A stretch of DNA of 64,000 nt from the UHGV virus genome UHGV-1558314; one strand, given 5' to 3'. Origin of the DNA: a virus. A model generated the notes under the pieces. It searched no databases, was not told the DNA's origin, and worked only from the letters and a program-made list of their open reading frames with translations. Each line of letters opens with the position of its first letter. Within the stretch, counting starts at the first letter, position 1. A program made the translations under genes and the position numbers. Of the stretch, positions 7,620 to 59,834 are shown piece by piece.

Positions 7620-10600
7620 TCAATTGCATGCTGAATGTCCGCAGTTGGTGCATCGAACACAGCCGTCAAACTTGACCATGTCACCACCGCATTCAGGGCA
7701 CTTTGCATACATTTTTGAGCCATCTTGAATATGCAGTTTCAATGCACGACCAATTGCTTTGCAGAATGTTCCGACAGATGCAAAGCTTTTTGCAGTTTGG
7801 TCGACAATTTCGCCAAGGTCAATACCATTGCGAAGCATCGTTGAGTATAGTCGAGTAATTGTTTGTTGCTCATCTGAACCAAGACGTTCTGATATATTGT
7901 CATAGTGCTGCAAGAATGACAAATTGTCACCAAGCTTGTAGTGCTTCTTATCAGTCTTTGTGATTGTCGTTTGTTCAATGCCTTGCAACTTGTCGAATTC
8001 ATCTTTGTCAAGTTCAAATGCAAAGATTTCATAAGGTCGACCGTCATCACAGCCTACAAGAATACACCACTTGCGCTTATACACTGACACGCAATACACT
8101 GCAGCAGGCAATACTGGTTTTCGTTTTGAGCGATGACCAGATTGCAAGATGTGCGACTTGTCTTTTGACTGCTTGTCATCTTTTACGAGAACACCTGCAC
8201 GTGAGCCGTCTCGATAAATTGTGCAGCCCTTGCAGCCAGATTTCCATGCAGTCATATAAATTTCACGAACGAGTTCTTTTGTTGCAGAGTTTGGAATGTT
8301 GACCGTTACAGAAATTGACGAGTCAATGTATTTTTGCAATGCACCTTGCAGTTTCACCTTGCCAATCCAGTCAACATCTTCAGTAGTTGCCTTGTAGTAT
8401 GGTGATTGAACAAGCAACTCATCAATGACTGCTTGTGGAGCATTTGATAGCCAAGCTTTGATACGAGACATTTCTGCTTCTGACCATTCAATGCCAGTAT
8501 CTTTGACAAGAGTAAATTTGCCATCGCCAAGCTGCAATCGTTTACAAATCCACTGCATCAATGGGTAGTGAACTACAGCATATTCAATGAACTTGTCACC
8601 AGTAGTCTCATCAATGAAGTTGATGTCAGCTTCATTATCAACTGCAGTAGGCTTGCGACGACGTTTATGCAGCGGCATAAAGACAGGTTCAATGCCAGAC
8701 GTTGTCTGAGTCATCAAAGCTGTAGTGCCTGTTGGCGCAATTGTGGTCGTGTTAATGTTTCGACGGCCAAATTGCTGATAAGTTTTGATATGCTCATCAT
8801 CAATCGGTTCAGATAGCATACGCTGTACGAACTTTGACTGCACATCTGTGTCATAGTCGAATATTGCAAATGCGCCACGAATCTTTGCTAAGTCAATCGA
8901 TGCTTCATAAGTAGCCTTTACAAGCCATTGTTGCATAGTGACTGCGAAGTCAATTGACTCTTGTGAACCATAGCGCAAGCCAAGCATTGCCATTGCATCG
9001 CCAAGTGCAAGGAAGCCCATGCCATATCTACGAGTATTTGTCAATTTGTCATAGACTTTGTGCCACAAGTCAAGTTCAGTCTTTTTGATGTCAAAGTCTT
9101 CTTTGTCTGACTGTACCTTTGCAATGATTCGTTGCACTGCTTCAATTTCAAGCTGTACAAGGTCATCCATGATGACTGCACAATCATACGTGTCTTTATA
9201 GAATGTCTCAAAGTCAAATGACGCATCAGCAGTCCAAGGATTAAGCACGTATGCAGTCAAATTGCGATGTGACAAAATGCAGCTTGCATATGCTGCAAGA
9301 GGTTGTTCACCACAATTTAATGTATTGACTACTTGCTTGTCATTGACTGCAATAAAGAAATTGTGGAAGTCTTCTACTGTACCATTGTACACATCTGCTT
9401 TGTTCATGTGACGTGTTGCAACGACTTTGACAATTGTATCACCAGTAGTGTCAATGTCTGCATATTTGCTGCAGCCACCTAATGCTGCACAAGCTTCACA
9501 GCAATATGACTGTTCACGATTGTCATAAGAGATTTCGAATTCTTTACCACAGCACTCGCATTGTTTGATAACTGTATTTCGTTCTGTTTTTACAAGCTCA
9601 TCAGTCTTCAATGCAATTGATAGCTTATCTGCGCTTGGCATATCAATTGCCCACAACGTGTCATTTGTCGCAAGGTCAATTGCATACTTGAAATCACCAT
9701 TAGCAAGTCTGAACTCATGATTTGCTGTGCAATTGATGACATGACCATCATCAAGCACAATCTGAATGATTTGTGCATTGTGTGCAGTCAATCTTGGTCG
9801 ACGCATTGTACGCACAACAAGCTTGCCATTAGCGTCAAGACAATACACTGGAATGTCTTCGCCGTTATCAGCAAGCTCTTTGAATGTCTTCAAGCCTGAG
9901 CCATCAGCAACAAGCACTTTTGTGTCACCAGTGAAGCATGGATTTGTTGAGCGCTCTTCATACATTTTGCCGTATGCTTTCGAGTTCGACTCTTCCATAA
10001 TGCGGTCCCAAAAGAATACACCAGGTTCTGCAGATGCCCATACATTATCAACAATTTTGTCAAACAATGCTTTTGCATCTGATGTCTTATGCAGCTCTTG
10101 ACCATTAGAGCCACGCCAAACATGCTCAAACTGTTGTTCTGCAAGCACTGCACGCATAAATGCATCAGTAAGCTTGATGGAAATGTTTGCGCATGTGATT
10201 TTCGTCAAGTCCTTTTTTGCATCAATGAACTTATCTGCATCAGGATGCTCAATTGACAATGACAACATCAATGCGCCACGCCTGCCATTTTGTGCAACTT
10301 CTTTTGTCGATGTTGAAAAACGTTCCATAAATGACACTACACCAGACGTCGTAACAGCACTGTTATGCACTTCTACGCCTTCTGGACGAATATGTGACAA
10401 ATCATGGCCGACACCACCACGACGTTTCATCAACTGAACTTGTTCTTCATCTATTTTGAAGATGCCGCCATATGAGTCTGCATCATTGCCTATTACATAG
10501 CAATTTGACATTGATGTGTAACCGCCAAGACCAATACCAGCCATTGGAGAACCACCAAGTACAAATCGCTTAAATGGCTCAAGCAAATATGCAAGTCGCT

Positions 10601-10841
10601 CTTTTGACAATACACGTTTGCCTGTCTGTTCTTCAAATTGTGATTCTATACGGTCAAATTCATTGACCCAGCGTTCATGCATATCAGACAATGAGTGTTC
10701 ATACAGATTGTCTTTGTCATGATGCAAGTATTTTGACATGCATATGTCAGCAGCCATTGAGTCGCCTGTAAATTCATGTGTCAGTGTAGTGTGCACTTCA
10801 GCATATTCAGGCGACCCAATTTGAATAGGACGTTTTGTCAT
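7620..10841 (-). CDS. nrdJ: Class II (adenosylcobalamin-type) ribonucleotide reductase with mini-intein and C-terminal zinc ribbon
   Basis: Motif STNP-[insert]-CGEQPL reconstitutes the NPCGEQ active-site loop; C-terminal CPECGG...CVRCTNCGH; ORF-track start at 10901 is TTG inside the promoter, true ATG (MTKRPIQ) at 10839-10841. Confidence 0.9.
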   Translation of the reverse strand: MTKRPIQIGSPEYAEVHTTLTHEFTGDSMAADICMSKYLHHDKDNLYEHSLSDMHERWVNEFDRIESQFEEQTGKRVLSKERLAYLLEPFKRFVLGGSPMAGIGLGGYTSMSNCYVIGNDADSYGGIFKIDEEQVQLMKRRGGVGHDLSHIRPEGVEVHNSAVTTSGVVSFMERFSTSTKEVAQNGRRGALMLSLSIEHPDADKFIDAKKDLTKITCANISIKLTDAFMRAVLAEQQFEHVWRGSNGQELHKTSDAKALFDKIVDNVWASAEPGVFFWDRIMEESNSKAYGKMYEERSTNPCFTGDTKVLVADGSGLKTFKELADNGEDIPVYCLDANGKLVVRTMRRPRLTAHNAQIIQIVLDDGHVINCTANHEFRLANGDFKYAIDLATNDTLWAIDMPSADKLSIALKTDELVKTERNTVIKQCECCGKEFEISYDNREQSYCCEACAALGGCSKYADIDTTGDTIVKVVATRHMNKADVYNGTVEDFHNFFIAVNDKQVVNTLNCGEQPLAAYASCILSHRNLTAYVLNPWTADASFDFETFYKDTYDCAVIMDDLVQLEIEAVQRIIAKVQSDKEDFDIKKTELDLWHKVYDKLTNTRRYGMGFLALGDAMAMLGLRYGSQESIDFAVTMQQWLVKATYEASIDLAKIRGAFAIFDYDTDVQSKFVQRMLSEPIDDEHIKTYQQFGRRNINTTTIAPTGTTALMTQTTSGIEPVFMPLHKRRRKPTAVDNEADINFIDETTGDKFIEYAVVHYPLMQWICKRLQLGDGKFTLVKDTGIEWSEAEMSRIKAWLSNAPQAVIDELLVQSPYYKATTEDVDWIGKVKLQGALQKYIDSSISVTVNIPNSATKELVREIYMTAWKSGCKGCTIYRDGSRAGVLVKDDKQSKDKSHILQSGHRSKRKPVLPAAVYCVSVYKRKWCILVGCDDGRPYEIFAFELDKDEFDKLQGIEQTTITKTDKKHYKLGDNLSFLQHYDNISERLGSDEQQTITRLYSTMLRNGIDLGEIVDQTAKSFASVGTFCKAIGRALKLHIQDGSKMYAKCPECGGDMVKFDGCVRCTNCGHSACN
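9315..9938 (-). other. Mini-intein (about 208 aa) inserted at the RNR catalytic cysteine
   Basis: Starts CFTGDTKVL, block F-like VYNGTVEDFHNFFIAVN, ends ...VVNTLN followed by +1 Cys; Cys-rich insert KQCECCGKEFEISYDNREQSYCCEAC; no LAGLIDADG domain seen. Confidence 0.7.
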
Positions 10842-10882
10842 TGTAACAGTGCATTTAAGTGTTTTAACAGTTTTATGTATAA

Positions 10883-10911
10883 ATTGTACAACAATGGGCA
10901 AAATTTTGCAT
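10883..10911 (-). promoter_or_regulatory. Sigma70-like promoter (ATGCAA-N17-TACAAT) for RNR
   Basis: Plus attgtacaac at 10883-10892, ttgcat at 10906-10911. Confidence 0.5.
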
Positions 10912-13334: not shown

Positions 13335-13850
13335 TTAGCCTGCAAACTCATTGATTTTTAGGTCATTTGTCGTAACTGCAAAGCAATCAATGTGCAGCCA
13401 TGTGACGTCTTTTTCTATACGACAACGATGCGGCAATTCATCTGCATGTTCTTTAATGAGCTTTCGCATTTCTGCAGCAGTCATATCTGCAGACTGACAA
13501 TCAATTGCTGCACCATTACAATGTGCACTCAAATAAAGCTTGTTTGCAAGTGTCTTGTCTTTTGGGATTTGACAGATATTGCATCGTAAGCCACGTTGAC
13601 TCATTGTGCCGCCTTTAGCCCAATTATTGACACATAACGGCACTTTCAGCACAAATTTGCGTAATGCAAGCAGCAAGTCAAGCAGTTCTCTGTCAAGAAA
13701 CTGCCAAGAATTATCGCCAAACTTGTCATAGCAATGTTTGCATACAAGTTCTTTTATGCTGAAATATTGCTTAAGCTCTGCAATGACAGAGTCTCTTGAA
13801 GCACTTGCAATATCTGCAATGTTAGCTATGCTGTTGTTGCTGTTGTTCAT
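13335..13850 (-). CDS. Peptidase M15-type endolysin (L-alanyl-D-glutamate peptidase-like)
   Basis: Zn-ligand motifs LSAHCNGAAIDC (SxHxxGxAxD) and TWLHIDC; start set at ATG 13848-13850, overlapping holin-like ORF by 29 nt. Confidence 0.7.
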   Translation of the reverse strand: MNNSNNSIANIADIASASRDSVIAELKQYFSIKELVCKHCYDKFGDNSWQFLDRELLDLLLALRKFVLKVPLCVNNWAKGGTMSQRGLRCNICQIPKDKTLANKLYLSAHCNGAAIDCQSADMTAAEMRKLIKEHADELPHRCRIEKDVTWLHIDCFAVTTNDLKINEFAG

Positions 13851-14133
13851 GTTGTCTATCAAGTTCTTTGCATTTGCACTCATTTCGTTCACCCATGACT
13901 TTTGTAATGCCCGCAGTTGCAAACATGCCTGCGACTGCGCCAATTATGCCTGCAACTGCGCCAAGTTGCTCAGTTGTTTTGCCAGTTGCTACGACTTCCC
14001 ATATGATAGCAAAACAAACAACGAGCAATATAAAGATGCCTATAAAAGTCACAGCTACAACAAAAAATGATTTGACTGACACACCAGTGTCATTCGTCAC
14101 TAAGTTGCGCATTGTAAATTTGTTGTTATTCAT
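13822..14133 (-). CDS. Holin-like small membrane protein (2 TM helices, charged C-terminus)
   Basis: FFVVAVTFIGIFILLVVCFAIIW and LGAVAGIIGAVAGMFATAGI hydrophobic segments; directly upstream of endolysin. Confidence 0.55.
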   Translation of the reverse strand: MNNNKFTMRNLVTNDTGVSVKSFFVVAVTFIGIFILLVVCFAIIWEVVATGKTTEQLGAVAGIIGAVAGMFATAGITKVMGERNECKCKELDRQHEQQQQQHS

Positions 14134-14146
14134 ATGGATGGCGAAC

Positions 14147-14173
14147 TGTACACATTGTACACATTGTACACAC
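14147..14173. repeat. Tandem 9-bp repeat TGTACACAT x3 (three -10-like TACAAT units on minus strand)
   Basis: tgtacacat tgtacacat tgtacacac, 14-40 nt upstream of holin-like start. Confidence 0.7.
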
Positions 14174-14234
14174 TTATATTGTATGTGTTTGTATATGTAT
14201 TTTAACAGGCATTAGCAAACAATACAAAAATGCA

Positions 14235-14276
14235 AAATGAAAGTGGCTCAGATGTATATCTGAGCCACTTTCATTT
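14235..14276 (-). terminator. Hairpin terminator (19-bp perfect stem)
   Basis: aaatgaaagtggctcagat gtat atctgagccactttcattt. Confidence 0.65.
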
Positions 14277-14293
14277 GTCATATGAGTTGTCTA

Positions 14294-15949
14294 TTATGCA
14301 AGCAATGTTTGCAGCATGTAGCAGCCTTTTGCATATGCGACAATTGCTTTTGCAGGATTGTTCTTGATGTATGCAGGCAACTTGAGCCAAATCAGTGCTA
14401 CAAGAACTTTCTGTCGCAGCGTTAAATCAAGTTCATCAATGTTGTAGCCAATGACTTTTGCTCTGACATCGCCATCAACATAATCGAATTGCTGATATGC
14501 TGACTGATTGAATGCATCATAGCCAGACAAGCCATATGCAAACTTTGCAATGTCATAATCGATGTCACCAGTCATCTTGACGTCACCAAAGTAGCCTCTT
14601 GGGTCAATGAACATGCATTTTGATGAATCTGCACTGAACATTGTATTTGACGTATTCGGGTCACCATGAATGAATGACCAATTTTCGCATGCATAGTCAA
14701 TTGAATCTTCTTGTGACAAGAAGAATCTTAACTTGCTCATCAGTTCATCGAATGGCATCAATGCAATACCATTGAATGATTTGATGCCTGCTACAAGTGA
14801 CTTGACTTCAGCATATCTTGCAATAGTAGTCTCAATGTACTCTTTGCGCATTGCGTCAATCATTTGCTGTCTGCTAACTGGCCAAATCTCGTCATTGTCA
14901 AGATTACTTGCATGCAATTCATTGATTGACTGTTTGAATGTTGTCATGCAGCCACGAGCAATTGCAGCATATCTACGCTCAATATCAACTTTGTTGAGGA
15001 ACTGATGTACAGTCACTCCGTTAATTTTCGACATTTTGATGAAGTCTTCACCAGTTTCAAATATCGATGGAATGACTGTCGATTCTGCATTCATAGCATG
15101 ACGATACCATTCTTGTTCTTTCTGAATGAGTGCCAAACCACGAGCATTTGTAGCAGATTTCGTAACAATATCGCCATCAATGCTAATGCTATTGAAATAC
15201 CGCACTTCATTATCACGTGCAGCCTTGACTGCTTCACTGACAAATGCTCCGCGTTCGCCATATGAATGACAGCCAGCAATTTCATATCTGTCTACAAATG
15301 TAACGTTGGTCATTAAATCAGCAAAATCAGCATTGTTATCATTATGCTGCATATCAATGACATTGTTATGAAACGCTGCAGGTACATAATATGCGCCAAC
15401 AATGCCACTATGATATGTAGACTCATACAAATGGTCGAGCACATATGCTTCTGCATCTGCATAAGACCCTACTTTGTAGAATGCATCAGTAGGAATGAGA
15501 TGCAGTCTGCAATCAATGTCATTTGACGTGCAACAAGTTATGCAGCCATTTTTGAATTCTGCAAACGGCAATTCAATATCGCCAAGCCACACATCAGACC
15601 AATGATAGAATACATTGCAATCACCAATGTTGTTAGCAACAAACATTGCTACATCTGCGCATGCTTTTGCTGAGCCATCAGCTTTGTCATGCACAATAGT
15701 TGATAACTTGATATCTGGTGCAAATGCTGCAGCATGTTCATGAATCATTGCTACATGAGTGTCATTTGCACATGCAACAATGACTTCATCAAACTGTCGA
15801 GCATAGGATGTCAAAATCTTTGCAAGCACTGTTTGTTTGCCTGCATTTACAAGAGTTTTAGGGATGTAATTGTTGCCGGTCATTGTTGACATGCGAGTGC
15901 CCAACCCACATGCAATGATTGCTAACACATTTGGATATTGATGAGACAT
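14294..15949 (-). CDS. Bifunctional sugar-phosphate nucleotidyltransferase / APH-family kinase
   Basis: N-terminal VLAIIACGLGTRMSTMTGNNYIPKTLVNAGKQ (NTP-transferase G-loop); C-terminal FIHGDPNTSN and CMFIDPRG (APH/choline-kinase Brenner motifs); ATG at 15947-15949. Confidence 0.8.
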   Translation of the reverse strand: MSHQYPNVLAIIACGLGTRMSTMTGNNYIPKTLVNAGKQTVLAKILTSYARQFDEVIVACANDTHVAMIHEHAAAFAPDIKLSTIVHDKADGSAKACADVAMFVANNIGDCNVFYHWSDVWLGDIELPFAEFKNGCITCCTSNDIDCRLHLIPTDAFYKVGSYADAEAYVLDHLYESTYHSGIVGAYYVPAAFHNNVIDMQHNDNNADFADLMTNVTFVDRYEIAGCHSYGERGAFVSEAVKAARDNEVRYFNSISIDGDIVTKSATNARGLALIQKEQEWYRHAMNAESTVIPSIFETGEDFIKMSKINGVTVHQFLNKVDIERRYAAIARGCMTTFKQSINELHASNLDNDEIWPVSRQQMIDAMRKEYIETTIARYAEVKSLVAGIKSFNGIALMPFDELMSKLRFFLSQEDSIDYACENWSFIHGDPNTSNTMFSADSSKCMFIDPRGYFGDVKMTGDIDYDIAKFAYGLSGYDAFNQSAYQQFDYVDGDVRAKVIGYNIDELDLTLRQKVLVALIWLKLPAYIKNNPAKAIVAYAKGCYMLQTLLA

Positions 15950-15971
15950 TGTGTAGTATTGTTTATATGAA

Positions 15972-16000
15972 TATTGTACAATATGCATTGCTATTTTGCA
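15972..16000 (-). promoter_or_regulatory. Sigma70-like promoter (TTGCAA-N17-TACAAT)
   Basis: Plus attgtacaat at 15972-15981, ttgcaa at 15995-16000. Confidence 0.55.
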
Positions 16001-16248
16001 AGATGACAATGCTTACGCCATACTGCAATTTCAACATCTGTAGCAAAATCAAAGTGCAAGCCATGCAATTGTTTCATGTCATATTGACGTCTTGCAATAT
16101 ACTTATTGCCAACTCGCTCAACAACAGAACCAATTTCTACTACATTTTTAGAATGTCGTGGCTCATGTAATGGCACTCTGAATATGTATCTGCCATCTAA
16201 TGTTGACATTATGTCACCATTGTCAATTATGCCTGTTTGCCTGCTCAT
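15991..16248 (-). CDS. Hypothetical small protein (85 aa)
   Basis: ORF track only. Confidence 0.4.
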   Translation of the reverse strand: MSRQTGIIDNGDIMSTLDGRYIFRVPLHEPRHSKNVVEIGSVVERVGNKYIARRQYDMKQLHGLHFDFATDVEIAVWRKHCHLAK

Positions 16249-18367: not shown

Positions 18368-18461
18368 TGTAGTAGAGGTTTTTGTTAAATTTATTATATA
18401 TGTATATATTACAACGACAGTGCAAAATTTGCACTGTCGTAGCATAAAAGTTTACACATTT

Positions 18462-23339: not shown

Positions 23340-23470
23340 TGTTAATATTGTATTGATATTGTACAACATGCATTGCATATTTGCAATGATACAACATGCA
23401 AAATGCGCTTGCACTTTGATGCAAAGTGCTGCGTATACAACATGCATCGCGTATTCGCATTTGATGCAAT
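23340..23470 (-). repeat. Cluster of three tandem promoter-like repeat units (TTGCAN-N17-GTTGTA[CT]AAT variants)
   Basis: attgtacaacatgcattgcatatttgcaatg / atacaacatgcaaaatgcgcttgcac / gtatacaacatgcatcgcgtattcgcatttgatgc; related copies at 24515-24590 and 48250-48360. Confidence 0.55.
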
Positions 23471-23474
23471 GTCA

Positions 23475-24494
23475 CTATTGCTTATGCCAGCCATATGATG
23501 CCTGACCAGCATCATACACTTCTACAAAACCATGGTCGTACATAAAATCTTCATTACGAGTGCCCTTGCCCCCATTAGTACCAAGAATACGGTCTGCACC
23601 ATGCATAAGCAGCATATTATTTGTGATATGTTGCTTTGTCAGCATATTGAACCAATGTTTGCTATATGACAAGCCAAGACCATCAAAGCCCAGCTTTGTG
23701 TACACGCCACCATCAAACTTGCTCAAATCACAATACGACAACACAGATTCAGGGTCATATGTCTTGATAAAGTGCTTGAATATGCGTTCGGCGCCACCTA
23801 CGACTTTTGTTGCTGCACAAAGACGCAGTAGTTCATACTGATATCGCTTATTGTATCGTGGACGACCAAATGTCATAAGCTGATGTATGACATAGCCGCC
23901 AAGCAATTCAAGTGGATGGCCTTCAATCAACGCAAGATTGATAAAATTGCCTGAGCACTTGCCTTGCAAATGATGTTCAATCAAAAATTGATTTGCAGTA
24001 TACTTGTCAATTTCAACAACTTTAAGCTTGCGAGCATATACAATCTTTGATTTGTCTACGATTTGATGCTTGATGTGATTGATAACTTTCTTGGCGTCAT
24101 CCCAATCCCACACATGAATGCAATGAAAGCCTGCAGCTTTTGCAATGTCTGTTTTCTTTGCATGAATATCACAAGGCAAATGCGAATCTTTTGCAGCATG
24201 CATAAATAGATGCTCAAATGAATGCGTGCTATTATGTGAAAATGTGGGATTGATGTTGATGACGATGTTGTCATGTCTAAAATCGAAGACTTCATCACCA
24301 ATAACAAAGTTGCGCTCAAAATCTATACCGACATGTTTGAGTAATACTTGATGCCACACATCTTTATAGGCTGATTCAAGATTGCTTAGCTCATCACAGT
24401 TTGCAATATTTTTGTAACGTTGAATAGCAGCATCAAAGTCAAGATTGACTTCAGCGTAGTCTGCATTTTTATCGTAGTGAAATTTTGAGCTCAT
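23475..24494 (-). CDS. Homing-endonuclease-like protein, family paralog 1 (Vsr/DUF559-like nuclease motif)
   Basis: IVININPTFSHNSTHSF ... GFHCIHVWDWDD and C-terminal VEVYDAGQ shared with paralogs; ATG at 24492-24494. Confidence 0.75.
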   Translation of the reverse strand: MSSKFHYDKNADYAEVNLDFDAAIQRYKNIANCDELSNLESAYKDVWHQVLLKHVGIDFERNFVIGDEVFDFRHDNIVININPTFSHNSTHSFEHLFMHAAKDSHLPCDIHAKKTDIAKAAGFHCIHVWDWDDAKKVINHIKHQIVDKSKIVYARKLKVVEIDKYTANQFLIEHHLQGKCSGNFINLALIEGHPLELLGGYVIHQLMTFGRPRYNKRYQYELLRLCAATKVVGGAERIFKHFIKTYDPESVLSYCDLSKFDGGVYTKLGFDGLGLSYSKHWFNMLTKQHITNNMLLMHGADRILGTNGGKGTRNEDFMYDHGFVEVYDAGQASYGWHKQ

Positions 24495-24515
24495 GTGTAT
24501 AATTTGTATGAGATT

Positions 24516-24544
24516 ATTGTACAACATGCAAATGCATGTTGCAT
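24516..24544 (-). promoter_or_regulatory. Sigma70-like promoter (ATGCAA-N17-TACAAT)
   Basis: Plus attgtacaac at 24516-24525, ttgcat at 24539-24544. Confidence 0.5.
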
Positions 24545-24598
24545 TTGATGCAAAGTACTGCGTACACAACATAAAGTACAAGTTTGCTTTTGACAGAC

Positions 24599-29806: not shown

Positions 29807-30556
29807 TCATCGTACAGTGAATGACTTATCATCATCTTCTGTAGTAGTCGGGTCATCAATTACATCGTGGCCAATGCCTGACTCTGGTTCTGGTTCTGGT
29901 TCCGGTTCCGGTTCCGGTTCTGGTTCTGGTTCCGGTTCTGGTTCCGGTTCTGGTTCCGGTTCTGGTTCCGGTTCTGGTTCCGGTTCTGGTTCAGGTTCTG
30001 GTTCCGGTTCCGGTTCTGGTTCTGGTTCCGGTTCTGGTTCCGGCTTGGGCTCTGGCTTGGGCTCTGGCTTGGGCTTCGATGAATAATCAAACATCTTATG
30101 AATCCATTTGCACCACCATTTGCGACATACATGTGTGCCATCATGATAATACGCTTGCAGCTCCATTGGAATTGCATGATATGCTTTGTCATGTGACATA
30201 CCTTTGAATACTCGCAAGTACACATAGCACAAGCAATATGCAATGTAGTACATAAGCGGTGATGCAAGCAGCCACCACCAGCTAAGCACATTGCATGCTG
30301 CAAGCACAATAAGTACAAGCAACGTCGCAAGTGTTACGAAGATGAATTGCTTTGCATGCACAGCTTCATGCTTCAATGTCTCAGAATATCTACTAAGTGT
30401 GTCATCATATGACTTATCACTTCTTATGAAGCACATTGCACACAACGACATTGCATAATAATGTGAAAATGGAATGTATGGCTGGTCGATGACAAGCATT
30501 GGTCCAGCAAACCACAGTCGCCACTGAGATTTCTTTGGCAGTGTTGCAGTTTTCAT
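29807..30556 (-). CDS. HExxH-motif membrane protein with C-terminal (KPEP)/(PE)n repeat tract
   Basis: [10 protein letters not shown] followed by hydrophobic helices; C-terminal about 60-aa PE repeat encoded by the hexanucleotide SSR. Confidence 0.7.
29884..30074. repeat. Hexanucleotide microsatellite (GGTTCY)n about 30 units plus (GGCTTGGGCTCT)n
   Basis: Direct reading of ggttctggttccggttcc...; encodes (PE)n on minus strand. Confidence 0.9.
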
Positions 30557-46480: not shown

Positions 46481-47736
46481 TAACTGTCATACGACCAGTG
46501 ACCACAGTCATACACTGGCACAAATCCAGTGTCAAGCATTTCTTGCTCATTAAAGTCATCATCAAGCAAGTGTTCACCCGATTTTGTATTAACCCAGTGC
46601 TTCTTAATTGTGCATTCATCAACCGCAAAGGGATTAAGTACATTGTCAGTACAGTCAATGAACGCATCATTCAAATGCGCTTCAATGATATGAAGCACAA
46701 TTTCTTGGTCGTGCCAATCAAATATCATGAGTGGCGTGTAGCCACATGCAATTGCAAGTTGTTGCTTCCACCAATGATAGTTTGGCTATTTTGCTTCTGC
46801 AGCATTTCGTTTAAAGCCATACACGCTATTATGAGTATGCGTCGGGTTAACGTCAATTAGCAGATTGCCATAATACAGGTCATATGACGTTATGCCAACA
46901 CCATGTTCAAACTCAAAATGCACACCAAGATGTTCTTCAATGTATGATTGCCACCATCTGTTTGGCGCAGATATGATTTGCCCATTTGCTTGCATACATT
47001 TATTTGTCATGCAAAACCATGGCACACCGTAACGTTCCATACAGGTTTTTGAAATTGCAGCAAGCCATTCATCTTTGTCTCTATGCGGCCATGCATAACC
47101 ATAACGCAGACGGCATGTTTGTTGAGCTTTAGCAACGATTGGCGCTAAACGTTCACCGTATATTTCACGTTTAGTTGCGATGGCTTTGCGTGGATTAGTC
47201 CATCCAGCATCACCCCATCGCTCAAGCTTCGTTTGCTGAGATTTTTCAACAATCAGTTCAAGATTCTCACCATATTTTTGACGACGAGTTTGCATTGCTG
47301 CAACATAATCTGTAATGCATCTATGGCCATACAAACGTTCTTTTGTCGCACATTGAACATCTACTGGACCTTGTGGATAGCCATAGCGTTCCATATTCGT
47401 TTGACGAATATGTGCTTTATCGCCATATGAACTGCCGTAGCGTGCAACTTTAGTGGCAATTGTTTGCTTGATGTTGCCTGCTTTAGAACCATAACGAGCT
47501 TCTTTAGTTGCTACGCATTTTTGTTTGACTTCTGCTCTGTTCCAATTATGCTCAACGCCATGTTTACGAAGATGGCCAATTTTCATGTTGTACACGTTTT
47601 TGATATGACCATGAGATGTCTTACGTGGTGCATATCGTACAAATGGTGTTTCTGCAAGCAACTTATCTCGTTCAGCTTCAAGCTCTTTAATTCGAGCTTC
47701 AAGAGCTTCACCAGTCAAAGGCTCTACATGTTTCAT
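46480..47736 (-). pseudogene. Homing-endonuclease-like paralog 4 interrupted by a single in-frame TAG (46786-46788)
   Basis: ORFs 46786..47736 and 46480..46728 are in the same frame; intervening codons read *PNYHWWKQQLAIACGYTPLMIFDW and align with intact paralogs. Confidence 0.7.
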
Positions 47737-48249: not shown

Positions 48250-48360
48250 ATTGTACAACATGCAAAATGTTTTTGCACCATTTTGATACAACATGCATTG
48301 CATATTTGCAATGATGCAAAGTACGATGTACACAACATGCATTGCATATTTGCAATCATA
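48250..48360 (-). repeat. Three tandem promoter-like repeat units (about 35-40 bp each)
   Basis: attgtacaacatgcaaaatgtttttgcacc / gatacaacatgcattgcatatttgcaatg / gtacacaacatgcattgcatatttgcaatc. Confidence 0.55.
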
Positions 48361-51369: not shown

Positions 51370-52662
51370 CTACAACAATGACGGCACTCGTTGAGTTTCA
51401 AGTGGGTCGCTGACATTGATGCCTGTGTATGCAACAAGTCGTTGTATTGGGCCAAGTACGAGTTTTTCGAACATGAGTCGTTTGTTCATTGGCGGCACAT
51501 CTGGCATATACTTCGGTGTCGGCATTTCGCCTGGTGCAAAGCCAAATGCATCGCAATATTGACGAGAGCCAATTGGGATATTTGACAAATCTGACTTTGC
51601 TCTGTCAACAAAGTAGTAGAACACTCGACCGCCTTCAATCAATGGGTATCGTGTTTCCAATCCATGAGCTTTTACAAGACGATTATGCCAACAACATGCC
51701 CTGTACTGAGGCAGTACACCTTTTGCTAACTGCCATTCGCCATCATAGCTTAACACATAGTCATGATACTTGTTTGCATTGACATATGCACAAAGTTTTT
51801 CCAAGTCTTGCTCAGCTTCAAAGCGTTTCCATAATTTCTGTATGAGCTTTGGATATGTCGCAGAAGTCAATTCACCTCTGAACATTTTTTTGAATGCATA
51901 ATCAAGCATTTGCCTAACAAGCATTGATGAGCCTGTTTGAATAAGTTCGATGCCCTTACCTTGAATATGCTCAGTAGGGTCTTCAAATACTCGACCATCT
52001 ACATATATTTGAGACTTCAAATACTTTTTCTTTTGGGCAAATAATGCAGTATCAGAAATCGTCTCAAGGTCGAACATTAGCACAGAATCTCCATGACGCT
52101 TTGCAAGGTCATTTGCATATGACCTATTGAACAGTTCTTCCATACGATATTTGAATATCGCAAGAATCAAGTCATACCAATTTTTGCCTGTGTAACCAAT
52201 TGACTTAACTGTCGGCTCAAAGTGAATGTACAAAGAGTCTGTGTCAATATACAGCACTTTGTCTTCATAGGGTTCTTGCTTTGGCGACACAGACAAATCA
52301 AAATTGCCTTTCAATTTGGGGTCATTGCGCAGCTTTTCATGCAATTCATAATCACACCACCATTTATTGTTGAGATAGTCATTTGCTACTCGTTCGCCAA
52401 AGTGAATGAAGTTACGCCCTTCTGCAGTAATTGATTCTGCAACTGCCATATTGAAGAAGTGATAGAATCGATTACTTGTCGCACCATAAATACTGTTCCT
52501 TAGTGTTTTGAACGTCACCTGCAATGACGCATGTTTAAGCGACTCTTGTATTGCAAAGCCACGTAATTCAAATAGACGCTCAGTAGACAACTGACTCAAA
52601 TCGCCAGTTAAATCTACTCCATCTATTTCAATTTTTGACATGTCTATCTGAGCTTCTGCCAT
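51370..52662 (-). CDS. Family-B DNA polymerase, C-terminal part (motifs B and C)
   Basis: FKTLRNSIYGA (KxxxNSxYG) and LYIDTDSLYI (DTDS). Confidence 0.9.
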   Translation of the reverse strand: MAEAQIDMSKIEIDGVDLTGDLSQLSTERLFELRGFAIQESLKHASLQVTFKTLRNSIYGATSNRFYHFFNMAVAESITAEGRNFIHFGERVANDYLNNKWWCDYELHEKLRNDPKLKGNFDLSVSPKQEPYEDKVLYIDTDSLYIHFEPTVKSIGYTGKNWYDLILAIFKYRMEELFNRSYANDLAKRHGDSVLMFDLETISDTALFAQKKKYLKSQIYVDGRVFEDPTEHIQGKGIELIQTGSSMLVRQMLDYAFKKMFRGELTSATYPKLIQKLWKRFEAEQDLEKLCAYVNANKYHDYVLSYDGEWQLAKGVLPQYRACCWHNRLVKAHGLETRYPLIEGGRVFYYFVDRAKSDLSNIPIGSRQYCDAFGFAPGEMPTPKYMPDVPPMNKRLMFEKLVLGPIQRLVAYTGINVSDPLETQRVPSLL

Positions 52663-54959: not shown

Positions 54960-54988
54960 TATTGTACAACATGTGTTAACTTTTTGCA
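54960..54988 (-). promoter_or_regulatory. Sigma70-like promoter (ATGCAA-N17-TACAAT)
   Basis: Plus attgtacaac at 54960-54969, ttgcat at 54983-54988. Confidence 0.5.
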
Positions 54989-56175
54989 TGACCACAATCA
55001 TACACCGCAACATAGCCAGCATCAATCATCTCTTGCTCATCTTGTCCGCAATCTTCAATATGTTCTTTTGTCTTCAAATGACACCAGTGTTTGCGAATTG
55101 TTGACTTGTCATCTGACAATTGCGGATTGAGTGCGAAGTCAGTTGAGTCTACTGGTTCACCTGCAAGATGCTTTCTAATGACATCAATGACAACATCAAA
55201 TGGCATCCAGTCAAACACTGTAATGCAAGTGTAGCTGTGTTTGATAGCAAGTTGTGTTTTGTTAAAATGGTTGTCATATGGTCGTTGCCAATTATGATTT
55301 GCATTGAACACAATATTTGCAAAACTACGCGTGCTATTATGAGAAATAGTTGGGTTAAGTTCAATTAGCAACTTATGCGATTTGCAAACAATGTCATATG
55401 ACAATGACGTGTTCTCAAATGTAAATTCTTGCTCAAAATGCACATCAAGGTTATCAAATAGCATGTTAAGCCTTGTGCATATTTTTGTATTGTGTGCAGA
55501 CTTTGCTTTAGATTTTGCTCTGCATTGAGGCAATTGGCATGGCCACACTACACCATGACGTGACAATGTTGTTGCACGAATTGCGTCAAGATTCGTTGAT
55601 GGATTGCCATATCGAGCTATTCGAGTTTGCCTTGCTTTGTCTATATTGCCTGGGCCTGCATTGCCCCATCGCTGCAACTTTGTTTGTCGAGCTTGTTCAT
55701 GATTGCTGTAATATGGGTCTCCATATCGTTCAAGCTTTGTTTGCTTTAACTTACTCATGTCGCCAAGCCCATTGCCATACTTAGCACGCTTTGTTTCTAT
55801 GCCTTTCTTTAGATTGCCTCGTTTGTTGCCATATTTTGCAATGTTGTGTGCATTACGTTTTTCAATGTCACCAAACCCATTGCCATATCGTGCAAATTTT
55901 GTTGCTTGCGCTTTTTCAAAATTGACTGCTAATGTGCCATAACGAGCATACTTAGTTGCTTTGCCCTTATCAACGACTTCTTTACGATGCAATGCAGCTT
56001 CAACACCATATTTTCGCAAATTTGTAATTTTTGCATTGTATCGTCGTCTAATTGTTGCATGAGTGTTGTTACGAGACCCTGTTCTGACATATTCAGTTGC
56101 AGCAAGTTCAGCATCACGTAACTGCTCAAGTTCTGCAATTCGTTGTTCAAGTTCAGCGCCTACAAGTGGTTTCAT
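54976..56175 (-). CDS. Homing-endonuclease-like protein, paralog 5, between the two polymerase ORFs
   Basis: Seven about 17-aa repeats with (K/R)YG core; LLIELNPTISHNSTRSF ... SYTCITVFDW ... VAVYDCGH. Confidence 0.75.
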   Translation of the reverse strand: MKPLVGAELEQRIAELEQLRDAELAATEYVRTGSRNNTHATIRRRYNAKITNLRKYGVEAALHRKEVVDKGKATKYARYGTLAVNFEKAQATKFARYGNGFGDIEKRNAHNIAKYGNKRGNLKKGIETKRAKYGNGLGDMSKLKQTKLERYGDPYYSNHEQARQTKLQRWGNAGPGNIDKARQTRIARYGNPSTNLDAIRATTLSRHGVVWPCQLPQCRAKSKAKSAHNTKICTRLNMLFDNLDVHFEQEFTFENTSLSYDIVCKSHKLLIELNPTISHNSTRSFANIVFNANHNWQRPYDNHFNKTQLAIKHSYTCITVFDWMPFDVVIDVIRKHLAGEPVDSTDFALNPQLSDDKSTIRKHWCHLKTKEHIEDCGQDEQEMIDAGYVAVYDCGHAKS

Positions 56176-56183
56176 GTGTTGTT

Positions 56184-57689
56184 TTACAATTTGATTGCGC
56201 CTCTACGAGCAAGCTCTTCTTCAATCAATCGAACATGATTGTTAGAATACCAGAACTGAATTTTTTTGTGATAATTACGCTTGTCTCCAAGTTCTTCCTG
56301 TACTGCTTTGTACATGCTTTTTTCATGATTGTCATACAAGCAGTCATTAACGGACACAAAGTACTCTGGCAATGACTTGTAATGCGCAATTTCATCAGGA
56401 TTTGTCAGACGTCTGATAAAGTTATCCGGTGATACATTGCATGATTTCATTGAACTTGGATAGAGTGAATTTGCATCAACACAAACAACTTTATGAGCCC
56501 AATGGTTAAATGGTTGCTTCACAAAGCCACCTTCAAATGCATGCACAACATTTTCTGGACCGCCTTGAGCACATACGACTTTGCCACCATATTTGTTGTA
56601 CAAATATGTCATCATGACGCCCTCAGATTGCTTAACTGGGCCTTGACAGTGGTTCATATCAATGTTTGACACATTTGACAAGCCCATCACATTTGATATC
56701 AAGTCAGTTTTTGCAGCAATCATCGCATTGACCATCGTATCGACAGCATTATATGCAATGAACGTGCATGGATGATACAAATACAGCTCTTTAAGTGTAC
56801 AATCATAGGGCAGCTTACCTACACCGAACATACGATGTGCAATATAGTCAAGTCGCAATGACTCTTTTTGCCACACTGAATAGTCGTATGTGTCCATGAG
56901 CTGCATGTAGTCATCAATGTACTTGTGATATGGCATACCATTGCCCCAGACAGTTCTGCCAACTGGAGATGCCAATGCTAAATCAATATTGTGCATTGCG
57001 CATCGATTTTTGACATAGATGTTGTCGAAGCCATTGATGTTCCAGCCTGTCAATGCAGGAATGTTTTTGAAGAGCTTAGTCACCCAAAAATGCAACAATT
57101 CATGCTCATTTGCATGTTGAAAGATTTTGACAGTTGGATGTTCTTTCAAATACGCAGCAAAGCAATGTTGACCCATGTACTCTTGAATGATGCCATTGAC
57201 AAACTCAAATGCATCATCCAGTGTTGGGTTTTGTTTGCCACAGCTTTTGCGCAAATCATCATCATTCAACAAGTCAACAGTAGTCTGAATGACACAATTG
57301 CATTGTTCATCGCATGTACTTATTGCATTAATGGGCATTTCAGCTTTGTCAGGCTTTGGAAAGCCATTGCCAATTTCAGTCTCAATATCGTAAAAGTATA
57401 ACTTTGGTCTACGATAAGCAAACAATTCAACTTTGTCAGCTTCAGGCAATTCAAATAAGAATTGCAGCAAGTCAAATTGATTGAATCGTTTTGCTGTGAC
57501 TCGAGTCACAGGCAATTTGCGCCAATCTTGAATATCTGCATATTGCGGCTCTACATGGTCTGATATTTGCCATACTGGAAATTGATATGGCTGTTCACAG
57601 ACTGGGTATGTTTTGATGTCAATGCCACCTTGCTCATTAACGTATGAAACTTCAATGCCATGTGACAAATATGCTACGTCGACAATCAT
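56184..57689 (-). CDS. Family-B DNA polymerase, N-terminal part (3'-5' exonuclease motifs + polymerase motif A)
   Basis: LYFYDIETE (Exo I), NINGFDNIYV (Exo II), YNAVDTMV (Exo III), VCVDANSLYPSS (motif A); ATG at 57687-57689. Confidence 0.9.
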   Translation of the reverse strand: MIVDVAYLSHGIEVSYVNEQGGIDIKTYPVCEQPYQFPVWQISDHVEPQYADIQDWRKLPVTRVTAKRFNQFDLLQFLFELPEADKVELFAYRRPKLYFYDIETEIGNGFPKPDKAEMPINAISTCDEQCNCVIQTTVDLLNDDDLRKSCGKQNPTLDDAFEFVNGIIQEYMGQHCFAAYLKEHPTVKIFQHANEHELLHFWVTKLFKNIPALTGWNINGFDNIYVKNRCAMHNIDLALASPVGRTVWGNGMPYHKYIDDYMQLMDTYDYSVWQKESLRLDYIAHRMFGVGKLPYDCTLKELYLYHPCTFIAYNAVDTMVNAMIAAKTDLISNVMGLSNVSNIDMNHCQGPVKQSEGVMMTYLYNKYGGKVVCAQGGPENVVHAFEGGFVKQPFNHWAHKVVCVDANSLYPSSMKSCNVSPDNFIRRLTNPDEIAHYKSLPEYFVSVNDCLYDNHEKSMYKAVQEELGDKRNYHKKIQFWYSNNHVRLIEEELARRGAIKL

Positions 57690-57700
57690 ATTATTATCTT

Positions 57701-58111
57701 TTAGAATAGAGATATTGTACAACAATTTGATTCAGGTTGCCATTCTACAATATGCGCATCAAAGTGTTTGTTAAGCCAATGTGCAAGTATGTGTCTATGA
57801 CAAAATGCAGATGGTCTGCACCAACATAACAATACAATGTCTCGTTCGCCTGCAAAAATCTTTATGCGATGCAGCATCAAACTTATCTGTGACAATGCAG
57901 CGTCAAGTTTTGCTGCATATTGCTCTGCATATTGTGCATTGTCAAGCAAGCCTGCTTTATGCAAACGAACAAGTGACATGTAATCAGGCATGACGTCAGT
58001 CCATGTAAAATCTGCTATGAAGCCCTTAGGCTTTGTTGCAGACACTTGAACAAGAAATGCGTTATCAGGCAGATGCCTGCATGCATAATATGAAGTCAAG
58101 ATTCTTGTCAT
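57701..58111 (-). CDS. Hypothetical protein (136 aa), DUF488-like
   Basis: DIVLLCWCRPSAFCHRHILAHWL resembles the conserved DUF488 core; tentative. Confidence 0.55.
   Translation of the reverse strand: MTRILTSYYACRHLPDNAFLVQVSATKPKGFIADFTWTDVMPDYMSLVRLHKAGLLDNAQYAEQYAAKLDAALSQISLMLHRIKIFAGERDIVLLCWCRPSAFCHRHILAHWLNKHFDAHIVEWQPESNCCTISLF
57714..57742 (-). promoter_or_regulatory. Sigma70-like promoter (-10 TACAAT) for polymerase N-part
   Basis: Plus attgtacaac at 57714-57723; -35-like ttgcca at 57737-57742. Confidence 0.45.
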
Positions 58112-59806: not shown

Positions 59807-59834
59807 ATTGTACAACGCTAAGTGTCATTTTGCA
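59807..59834 (-). promoter_or_regulatory. Sigma70-like promoter (GTGCAA-N16-TACAAT)
   Basis: Plus attgtacaac at 59807-59816, ttgcac at 59829-59834. Confidence 0.5.

What the first reader, a model, noticed from the sequence alone, without database searches (positions are those of the whole stretch)
14147..14173. Three tandem TGTACACAT repeats in front of the holin-like gene
In gene sense these are three consecutive -10-like GTGTACAAT units immediately upstream of the putative lysis cassette. They may be a multi-start promoter or an operator for timing of lysis.
Basis: seen in the sequence. Interest (0 to 1): 0.35.

Follow-up and report, generated by a model that had tools for sequence, protein, structure and literature searches.

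The report
Variable 9-base repeat before phage holin
The three tandem 9-base units in front of this gut phage's holin gene are real, but related phages carry 1 to 4 copies, so the array is a slippage-prone variable spacer rather than a required promoter or operator.

Summary
TGTACACAT occurs 2.9 times, perfectly, at 14147-14172 on the + strand. In gene sense this reads GTGTGTACA-ATGTGTACA-ATGTGTACA-G and ends 13 nt before the ATG of a two-transmembrane holin-like ORF, which overlaps an endolysin gene.

The window comes from a ~175 kb myovirus of the human gut, distantly related to jumbo phages of Bacteroidetes.

In 44 related contigs the array has 1 unit (21 loci), 2 (3), 3 (19) or 4 (1). Its 5' edge also varies, and some units carry point changes. 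It is the most variable 50 nt in a 2.9 kb alignment. The blocks on either side are almost invariant.

The units share the 8-mer TGTACAAT with the phage's own promoter-like motif, TGCAAA-N13-GTTGTACAAT. They lack the rest of that motif and score poorly against a model built from it. Single-unit alleles contain no TGTACAAT at all.

The invariant block upstream carries ATACATAT, the 8-mer most enriched in gene-strand intergenic DNA. It also precedes the capsid and tail-sheath genes.

Best reading: the array is a length-polymorphic repeat made by slippage, probably inside the 5' leader of the lysis transcript. It is dispensable and at most tunes holin dose. Neither a multi-start promoter nor an operator is supported, and neither is excluded. 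Interest is modest.

The parts
14235..14276 (-). Intrinsic terminator hairpin of the upstream gene 14294-16009 (19-pair stem, loop ATAC, T-rich tail).
   Evidence: Terminator scan; sequence. The hairpin is kept in all relatives, with stem changes G-C to G-T and A-T to G-T.
14191..14234 (-). Nearly invariant block between the terminator and the array. It holds a sigma-70-like candidate promoter: TTGTAT (14227-14222), 17-nt spacer, TGt-TAAAAT (14207-14199).
   Evidence: Mean column entropy is 0.007 for 14220-14191 among 30 unique haplotypes, as low as the holin coding sequence. The hexamers were read. The TGnTAnAAT pattern is not enriched genome-wide (9 on the gene strand, 8 on the other), so the promoter assignment is an inference.
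14193..14200 (-). ATACATAT, the genome's most gene-strand and intergenic-specific 8-mer. Candidate late-promoter or initiation-region element.
   Evidence: 9 copies on the minus strand, 0 on the plus, 8 of 9 intergenic, p about 1e-9. It also lies upstream of the tail-sheath gene (33521), the capsid gene (27736), the 1068-aa gene (7556) and the 513-aa gene (13333). It directly follows the -10 of two consensus promoters, at 18415 and 683. It is invariant in all 44 relatives.
14178..14183 (-). Upstream TACAAT hexamer just 5' of the array. The scan tool pairs it with TTAAAA as a 9-of-12 sigma-70-like site.
   Evidence: It reads TATAAT in L013 and is disrupted by a 1-nt deletion in L041.
14147..14177 (-). 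The hypervariable segment: 5' edge ATAAG, then TGTGTACAA, TGTGTACAA, TGTGTACA. The reported array is 14147-14173.
   Evidence: TRF. Allele table with 1-4 units and variable edges ATAA, ATAC, ATAAG, ATATAG, ATATAGTG. Entropy 0.36-0.67 and 37 indel columns.
14134..14146 (-). Conserved spacer GTTCGCCATCCAT between the array and the first ATG.
   Evidence: Entropy 0.007 for 14141-14111. It served as the 3' anchor in all loci.
13822..14133 (-). Holin-like ORF of 103 aa with two in-frame starts, M1 (14133) and M8 (14112), two hydrophobic segments and a charged poly-Q tail.
   Evidence: ORF list and hydropathy. M8 is invariant, including in the 71%-identical homologue P0003, whereas the residues before it are not conserved. 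No family match.
13335..13883 (-). Endolysin (M15-type peptidase-like), overlapping the 3' end of the holin-like ORF.
   Evidence: PHROG 894 'endolysin', E=2e-16. tblastn hits to annotated endolysin, L-Ala-D-Glu endopeptidase and peptidase_M15_3 genes in gut and Vibrio phages.

Best explanation
The array is a variable-number tandem repeat produced by replication slippage or unequal recombination of a 9-bp unit (TGTGTACAA). It sits in the untranslated interval between a nearly invariant block that follows the upstream terminator and the nearly invariant start region of the holin gene.

The lysis genes are most likely transcribed from that invariant block, or by read-through of the terminator. 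In that case the array is transcribed as part of the 5' leader, roughly +15 to +45. Extra units are dispensable. They lengthen the leader by about 10, 20 or 30 nt and add -10-like TACAAT hexamers and upstream AUGs. Their effect on holin and endolysin output is therefore at most quantitative.

Shown: the repeat, its position, its 1-4 copy polymorphism, the invariance of its flanks, and its poor fit to the phage's own promoter model. Inferred: the slippage origin, the location of the promoter, and any effect on expression.
For: 1. Copy number is 1 (21 loci), 2 (3), 3 (19, including the window) or 4 (1) among 44 related contigs. There are 14 distinct alleles, including GT-dinucleotide length changes at the 5' edge and point variants such as ATATGCACA and TGTATACA.
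2. Copy number changed within edge classes: the ATAAG class has 2 and 3 units, the ATATAG class has 3 and 4. Copy states are also scattered over clusters defined by the flanking sequence. L027 (1 unit) and L033 (3 units) differ by only 0.2% in 2 kb of flanks.
3. The array is the entropy and indel peak of a 2.9 kb alignment (0.36-0.67 against 0.007 on both sides).
4. Single-unit alleles occur on long contigs, up to 175.6 kb and of near-complete genome length (L018). Three units are therefore not needed.
5. The invariant upstream block contains ATACATAT. This is the top gene-strand intergenic 8-mer and is also found before the capsid and sheath genes. At two consensus promoters it lies directly after the -10 element. 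The same 15-mer, ATACATATACAAACA, follows the -10 of the promoter at 683.
6. The units fail the phage's bipartite promoter model. The best full-model score in the holin upstream region is -15.5, against 35-48 for the nine consensus sites used to build the models (the 42-nt model). The half-site rank is about 290.
7. A more distant lineage (holin 71% identical, L004) has no repeat at the equivalent position.
Against: No transcript 5' ends are available, so the promoter placement is inferential.
- The extended -10-like TGtTAAAAT pattern is not enriched on the gene strand.
- The invariant block is no more conserved than the holin coding sequence next to it, so its conservation alone does not prove function.
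- Every allele keeps a hexamer with A at position 2 and T at position 6 exactly 20 nt before the first ATG: TATAAT, TATACT, TACAAT or CACAAT. That is what a real -10 element at that spot would look like.
- Some allele scatter may reflect recombination between co-circulating phages rather than recurrent slippage.
- All multi-unit alleles carry 1-4 extra bases at the 5' edge, so the step from 1 unit to several was not a simple 9-bp slip.
Confidence: 0.55

Rival explanations
1. Multi-start promoter. Each unit junction forms a TG-TACAAT extended -10-like element of the type this phage uses. RNA polymerase starts 6-8 nt downstream of one or several of them. This would give short leaders of about 13 nt to the first ATG, or about 34 nt to the conserved Met8. 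Copy number would then set promoter strength.
For: TGTACAAT is the second most enriched gene-strand intergenic 8-mer and the core of the consensus GTTGTACAAT. The last hexamer lies 20 nt before the ATG, within the 16-46 nt range seen between the -10 element and the ATG at consensus promoters. All alleles keep an A2/T6 hexamer at that position, and single-unit alleles have a perfect TATAAT there.
Against: There is no TGCAAA box at N13. The sequence after the hexamer is G-rich where the consensus is AT-rich. The half-site scores -4.7, rank about 290, with 343 positions on the opposite strand scoring higher. TGTACAAT also occurs 6 times inside coding sequence. The A2/T6 hexamer is largely an automatic by-product of the unit's own sequence. 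The sequence about 35 nt upstream of that hexamer differs completely between 1-unit and 3-unit alleles.
Confidence: 0.2
2. Operator array. The palindromic TGTACA cores, spaced 9 bp apart, would be tandem binding sites for a phage or host repressor. The model is the tandem 8-bp met boxes bound by MetJ, or ribbon-helix-helix repressors in general. Such a repressor would delay holin expression, and copy number would set cooperativity.
For: Each unit has a perfect 6-bp palindrome, the units are head to tail without spacers, and the array lies between the candidate promoter and the start codon, a typical operator position. One unit is kept in every relative.
Against: The site is the least conserved part of the region. 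Core variants TGCACA and TATACA occur. Half of the genomes have a single unit. No second TGTACA-N3-TGTACA exists in 64 kb. No candidate DNA-binding protein was identified next to the cassette.
Confidence: 0.08
3. RNA-level control. The array would change leader structure or add upstream AUGs and short upstream ORFs. This would alter use of the two in-frame holin starts (M1 and M8), by analogy with the sdi stem-loop that sets the S107:S105 ratio in phage lambda.
For: Two in-frame starts with Lys5 between them, and Met8 conserved in a 71%-identical homologue. In most alleles an upstream ORF (ATG TGT ACA ... GAA TAA) ends 5 nt after the first ATG (read). UGUACA is self-complementary.
Against: The leader folds no better than shuffled sequence (z=0.24). 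The predicted unpaired probability around M1 and M8 is the same for 1-3 units: 0.61-0.63 for M1 and 0.56-0.59 for M8. ATAC-edge alleles lack the upstream ATG.
Confidence: 0.07

Closest known systems
Simple-sequence repeats in promoters or leaders of bacterial contingency loci, for example TA repeats between -35 and -10 of Haemophilus influenzae hifA/hifB and TAAA repeats upstream of Neisseria meningitidis nadA (own knowledge)
   Same: A short tandem repeat lies in the regulatory interval of a gene whose dosage matters for fitness. Copy number differs between otherwise very similar genomes. The flanks are conserved.
   Different: The unit is 9 bp and there are only 1-4 copies, so expected slippage rates are much lower. 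The host is a lytic phage rather than a bacterium. No switching within a clone and no effect on expression has been shown here.
Phage lambda S gene dual-start (S107/S105) with the upstream sdi RNA structure (own knowledge). Holin production rate sets lysis time (PMC3166277; bioRxiv 10.1101/2025.05.14.654169)
   Same: The element lies in the 5' region of a holin gene that has two in-frame Met codons with a basic residue between them. The cited lambda work shows that promoter activity and translation efficiency of the holin shift lysis timing.
   Different: No significant RNA structure is predicted here. Translation starts in Bacteroidetes hosts do not rely on Shine-Dalgarno pairing. Use of both starts is untested.
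MetJ met-box operators: 8-bp palindromic boxes repeated 2-5 times in tandem (own knowledge)
   Same: Palindromic short boxes arranged head to tail, with box number varying between sites.
   Different: The period is 9 bp, not 8. The site is hypervariable in the population. No cognate repressor and no regulon were found.
Phage T4 promoter classes: middle promoters with a MotA box at -30 plus a -10 element, and late promoters with TATAAATA only (own knowledge)
   Same: This phage shows a bipartite class (TGCAAA-N13-GTTGTACAAT) before replication and nucleotide-metabolism genes. It also shows a short AT-rich element (ATACATAT) before capsid, sheath and lysis genes.
   Different: The sequences are unrelated to those of T4. 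The factors that read them are unknown. The temporal classes are inferred from gene function only.

Membership tests
Tandem repeat / VNTR | At least two head-to-tail copies beyond chance expectation | tested here: met
   TRF gives 2.9 perfect copies, score 52. The period-9 run of 17 was never reached in 300 simulations.
Tandem repeat / VNTR | Copy number differs among related genomes while the flanks stay aligned | tested here: met
   1, 2, 3 and 4 units between invariant anchors in 44 loci. The array is the entropy and indel peak.
Contingency (phase-variable) locus | High-frequency, reversible copy-number change within a clonal population | not testable with these tools
   Only assembled contigs were available, not reads. 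Scatter of copy states over flank-based clusters is compatible with this but also with recombination.
Contingency (phase-variable) locus | Copy number changes expression of the adjacent gene | not testable with these tools
   No expression data. Predicted start-site accessibility is unchanged for 1-3 units.
This phage's bipartite promoter class (TGCAAA-N13-GTTGTACAAT) | GTTGTACAAT-like -10 half followed by AT-rich bases | tested here: not met
   The units match 8 of 10 bases (tGTGTACAAT) and are followed by GTG. The half-site scores -4.7, rank about 290.
This phage's bipartite promoter class (TGCAAA-N13-GTTGTACAAT) | TGCAAA box 13 nt upstream of GTTG | tested here: not met
   The full model scores at most -15.5 anywhere in 14134-14300, against 35-48 for the nine consensus sites (the 42-nt model).
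Sigma-70-type promoter | -35 and -10 hexamers at 16-18 nt spacing | tested here: inconclusive
   The scan finds TTAAAA-16-TACAAT (9 of 12), ending at 14178 just upstream of the array, and nothing inside the array. The region as a whole has no excess of such sites (14 found, 10.3 expected). The host's polymerase specificity is unknown.
Bacteroidetes primary-sigma promoter (TTTG at -33, TAnnTTTG at -7; own knowledge) | TAnnTTTG upstream of the gene | tested here: not met
   No TAnnTTTG in 14134-14293. The motif is not enriched on the gene strand (25 against 42).
Tandem-box operator (MetJ-like) | The same box recurs at other regulated genes and is conserved | tested here: not met
   No other TGTACA-N3-TGTACA in the window. 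The site is the least conserved part of the locus.
Holin-endolysin lysis cassette | Small membrane protein with at least one transmembrane segment and a charged C-terminus, adjacent to a muralytic enzyme gene | tested here: met
   Two hydrophobic segments and a charged tail. The overlapping ORF matches PHROG 894 endolysin and annotated endolysins. Hole-forming activity itself is untested, and the ORF matches no holin family.
Structured RNA element | Folding energy better than shuffled sequence, or a match to a known RNA family | tested here: not met
   z=0.24. No Rfam hit in the whole window.

The most novel reading that the evidence does not exclude
The array is a mutable tuning knob for lysis timing. 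Gain and loss of 9-bp units would create or remove TG-TACAAT promoter cores, or change leader length. This would shift holin dose, giving a widespread human-gut phage lineage heritable but rapidly changeable latent periods. It would be a contingency-type locus in a virus, acting on a life-history trait.
Probability: 0.12. Interest if true: 0.6.

Novelty: new member of a known kind. Interest (0 to 1): 0.3.

Why it matters
Lysis timing is a central fitness trait of a phage. In lambda it responds to the rate of holin production, through both promoter activity (PMC3166277) and translation efficiency (bioRxiv 10.1101/2025.05.14.654169).

Here a natural length polymorphism of 1-4 units sits directly in front of a holin gene, in a phage lineage recovered from many human gut metagenomes. 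This supplies ready-made alleles for testing whether regulatory repeats tune lysis in uncultured gut phages. If the polymorphism has no effect, it is still a useful strain marker for this lineage.

Checking the finding also exposed two strand-specific, gene-upstream motifs (TGCAAA-N13-GTTGTACAAT and ATACATAT). They could anchor promoter annotation for this poorly known group of phages related to jumbo phages of Bacteroidetes.

Tried and rejected
- Chance occurrence. Rejected by TRF, by simulation and by the population polymorphism.
- The 9-mer as a dispersed genome-wide motif. Rejected: 36 matches against 40 expected.
- Membership of the phage's main promoter class. Rejected by full and half models.
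- Bacteroidetes-type -7 element. Absent.
- RNA structure or known RNA family. The fold is not significant and Rfam is empty. Start-codon accessibility is unchanged across alleles.
- Replication-origin iterons or DnaA boxes. The unit TGTGTACAA matches the box TGTGGATAA at 7 of 9 positions by eye. However, there is no GC-skew turn near 14 kb, and a single-copy state in half of the genomes makes this unlikely.
- Coding repeat. In the holin frame the units read Cys-Val-Gln, but no start codon precedes them in the window. The longer gene calls in relatives (117 and 130 aa, P0001 and P0012) arise from 2-3 nt edge indels and are artefacts.
- Searches that found little. Megablast against phage records found nothing. 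IMG/VR holds only one relative. A peptide-pattern scan of JGI metagenomes found none. A full-text search for the motif strings returned only unrelated primer hits. A search for promoter motifs of Bacteroidetes jumbo phages returned nothing relevant.
- Helical phasing. Length increments of +10, +19, +20, +22 and +29 nt do not fit a single phase.

Full report
**The observation**

The + strand at 14147-14173 reads TGTACACAT TGTACACAT TGTACACAC. Tandem Repeats Finder reports 2.9 perfect copies of a 9-nt unit, score 52.

Nearly all genes in the window are on the minus strand. In gene sense the region reads ...TACAAT-ATAAG-TGTGTACAA-TGTGTACAA-TGTGTACA-GTTCGCCATCCAT-ATG. So there are two GTGTACAAT and one GTGTACAGT, and the last TACAAT ends 20 nt before the ATG at 14133.

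The 9-mer is not over-represented elsewhere: 36 matches at up to 1 mismatch, against 40 expected. The local tandem arrangement is not chance. A perfect self-match run of 17 at period 9 was never reached in 300 first-order Markov simulations, where the maximum was 14.

**Context**

- The ORF 13822-14133 (103 aa) has two hydrophobic segments and a charged, Gln-rich tail. It matches no curated family.
- It overlaps an ORF (13335-13883) that matches PHROG 894 'endolysin' at E=2e-16. That ORF also matches annotated endolysins and M15 peptidases of gut phages. 'Lysis cassette' is therefore a reasonable label.
- The upstream gene (14294-16009, nucleotidyl-transferase-like) ends in a strong hairpin terminator at 14276-14235.
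- The window encodes a tail sheath, a portal, a capsid protein, a ribonucleotide reductase and a split DNA polymerase.
- The capsid protein is 26-37% identical to those of Chryseobacterium phage MA9V, phage PAU, Tenacibaculum phages and the Prevotella Lak phages.
- Related contigs of 175-181 kb come from human gut metagenomes.
- Start codons lack Shine-Dalgarno sequences, which fits a Bacteroidetes host. That last link rests on my own knowledge.

**Comparison among isolates**

I used the holin protein and its variants to retrieve encoding contigs. I also ran a gapped DNA pattern across two public collections. Together with the window this gave 44 distinct loci sharing the invariant anchors ACACATACAAT and GTTCGCCATCC.

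Between the anchors the array has:
- 1 unit in 21 loci: ATAATGTGTACA in 14, ATAATGTGCACA in 2, ATACTGTGTACA in 3, ATACTGTATACA in 1, and L041 with a 1-nt deletion.
- 2 units in 3 loci.
- 3 units in 19 loci. Eight are identical to the window. The others have an ATATAG or ATATAGTG edge, a diverged middle unit ATATGCACA, or a last unit TGTATACA.
- 4 units in 1 locus (L036).

Copy number varies within edge classes: the ATAAG class has 2 and 3 units, the ATATAG class has 3 and 4. Copy states are also scattered over clusters defined by 2 kb of flanks. For example, L027 (1 unit) and L033 (3 units) differ by 0.2% in their flanks.

In a 2.9 kb alignment of 30 unique haplotypes, the array is the clear peak of entropy (0.36-0.67) and holds 37 indel columns. 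The 30-nt blocks on each side have entropy 0.007. Other 30-nt windows in that alignment score 0.007-0.30, apart from the two alignment-edge windows.

Single-unit alleles occur on long contigs, up to 175.6 kb and of near-complete genome length (L018). A more distant lineage (holin 71% identical, L004) has no repeat at this position.

**Are the units promoters?**

The phage has a striking strand-specific bipartite motif, TGCAAA-N13-GTTGTACAAT. There are nine exact GTTGTACAAT copies, all on the gene strand and none on the other. About ten weaker members exist. Most lie 16-46 nt before the start codons of replication and nucleotide-metabolism genes. The motif is also present in the distant lineage (L004).

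The unit junctions share the 8-mer TGTACAAT with this motif. That 8-mer occurs 17 times on the gene strand against 5 on the other, and 11 of the 17 are intergenic.

The units nevertheless fail on three counts:
- They lack the TGCAAA box.
- They are followed by GTG rather than AT-rich bases.
- They score -4.7 on the -10 half-model, rank about 290. A similar number of positions on the opposite strand score higher.

Single-unit alleles have no TGTACAAT at all. They have TATAAT or TATACT in the same place.

One point remains in favour of a promoter inside the array. Every allele keeps a hexamer with A at position 2 and T at position 6 exactly 20 nt before the ATG. This is largely a consequence of the unit's own sequence, but it cannot be dismissed.

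**Where the promoter more likely is**

The invariant block 14234-14191 contains ATACATAT (14200-14193). This is the single most gene-strand and intergenic-specific 8-mer in the window: 9 copies against 0, with 8 of the 9 intergenic, p about 1e-9. Other copies lie:
- upstream of the tail-sheath gene, the capsid gene, and two other genes that follow terminators;
- directly after the -10 element of two consensus promoters, that is, at the initiation region.

The 15-mer ATACATATACAAACA is shared exactly with the promoter at 683. A sigma-70-like TTGTAT-N17-TGtTAAAAT can be read just before it, although that pattern is not enriched genome-wide.

The most economical model is therefore that the lysis transcript starts in this block, or reads through the terminator, and the array lies in the leader. 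This step is inferred, not shown.

**Other mechanisms tested**

- RNA structure. The leader folds no better than shuffled sequence (z=0.24). Predicted accessibility of both candidate start codons is unchanged for 1-3 units. Rfam gives nothing.
- Operator. No other TGTACA-N3-TGTACA exists in 64 kb, and the site is the least conserved part of the locus.
- Bacteroidetes-type promoter. The TAnnTTTG -7 element is absent.

**Verdict**

The array is a hypervariable spacer of 1-4 units. It is not a conserved triple promoter or triple operator.

In kind it resembles the short repeats in regulatory regions of bacterial contingency loci. Rapid switching and an effect on expression are both untested here. 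Holin production rate sets lysis time in lambda (PMC3166277; bioRxiv 10.1101/2025.05.14.654169), so a tuning role is worth testing, but nothing here demonstrates one.

I rate the interest as modest (0.3) and class the array as a new member of a known kind.

Noticed in passing
window, minus strand; first base of GTTGTACAAT at 59816, 57723, 54970, 52693, 48259, 24525, 23367, 10892, 683; weaker sites at 15982, 53673, 61695, 18415, 25650, 48292, 3398, 11649, 23395, 20636; also L004:2673: A strand-specific bipartite promoter-like motif, TGCAAA-N13-GTTGTACAAT(at). All nine exact copies are on the gene strand and none on the other. Most lie 16-46 nt before the start codons of replication and nucleotide-metabolism genes. 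The TGCAAA box is often part of a TGCAAA...TTTGCA palindrome.
   Followed up: partly
window 23367-23441, 48259-48336, 24525-24570 (minus strand): Two or three of these promoter-like modules stand in tandem, about 28-46 nt apart, in single intergenic regions. Larger regulatory units are therefore also duplicated in this genome.
   Followed up: no
window minus strand 33521, 27736, 18405, 17429, 16189, 14200, 13333, 7556, 673: ATACATAT is the most gene-strand and intergenic-enriched 8-mer (9 copies against 0, 8 of 9 intergenic, p about 1e-9). It precedes the sheath, capsid, holin and other genes, and abuts the -10 element of two consensus promoters. It is a candidate late-promoter or initiation element.
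   Followed up: partly
window minus strand 61631, 18380, 11618, 3355: The conserved leader element AACCTCTAC lies 3-4 nt before the ATG of four genes. Each of these is downstream of the GT(T/A)GTAnTAT variant of the promoter motif. The sequence resembles the anti-Shine-Dalgarno sequence rather than a Shine-Dalgarno sequence. Its function is unknown.
   Followed up: no
window 14110-14133 (minus strand) and 13822-13860: The holin-like ORF has two in-frame starts (MNNNKFTM...) with a Lys between them, a dual-start-like layout. Met8 is invariant even in a 71%-identical homologue, while the residues before it are not conserved. The C-terminal poly-Gln run varies in length among relatives (QQQ to QQQQQ).
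   Followed up: partly
window 29807-30556 (minus strand), repeat at 29883-30076: A 249-aa protein with a long (KPEP)/(EP)n repeat of about 35 Glu-Pro pairs, encoded by a 6/12-nt tandem repeat with TRF scores of 232-267.
   Followed up: no
window 7620-10901; 51370-52662 and 56184-57725; 23475-24581, 46786-47736, 54976-56175: The ribonucleotide reductase large subunit has a weak intein-domain hit. The DNA polymerase is split into two ORFs about 3.5 kb apart. Several HNH or homing-endonuclease-like ORFs are present, so the genome looks rich in selfish elements.
   Followed up: no
L010 (ena:ERZ27260853:k119_42272, 175,395 bp) and L021: These contigs are identical to the window over the 2 kb of flanking sequence compared, and they carry the same array allele. 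L010 is probably the same phage genome as the window.
   Followed up: partly
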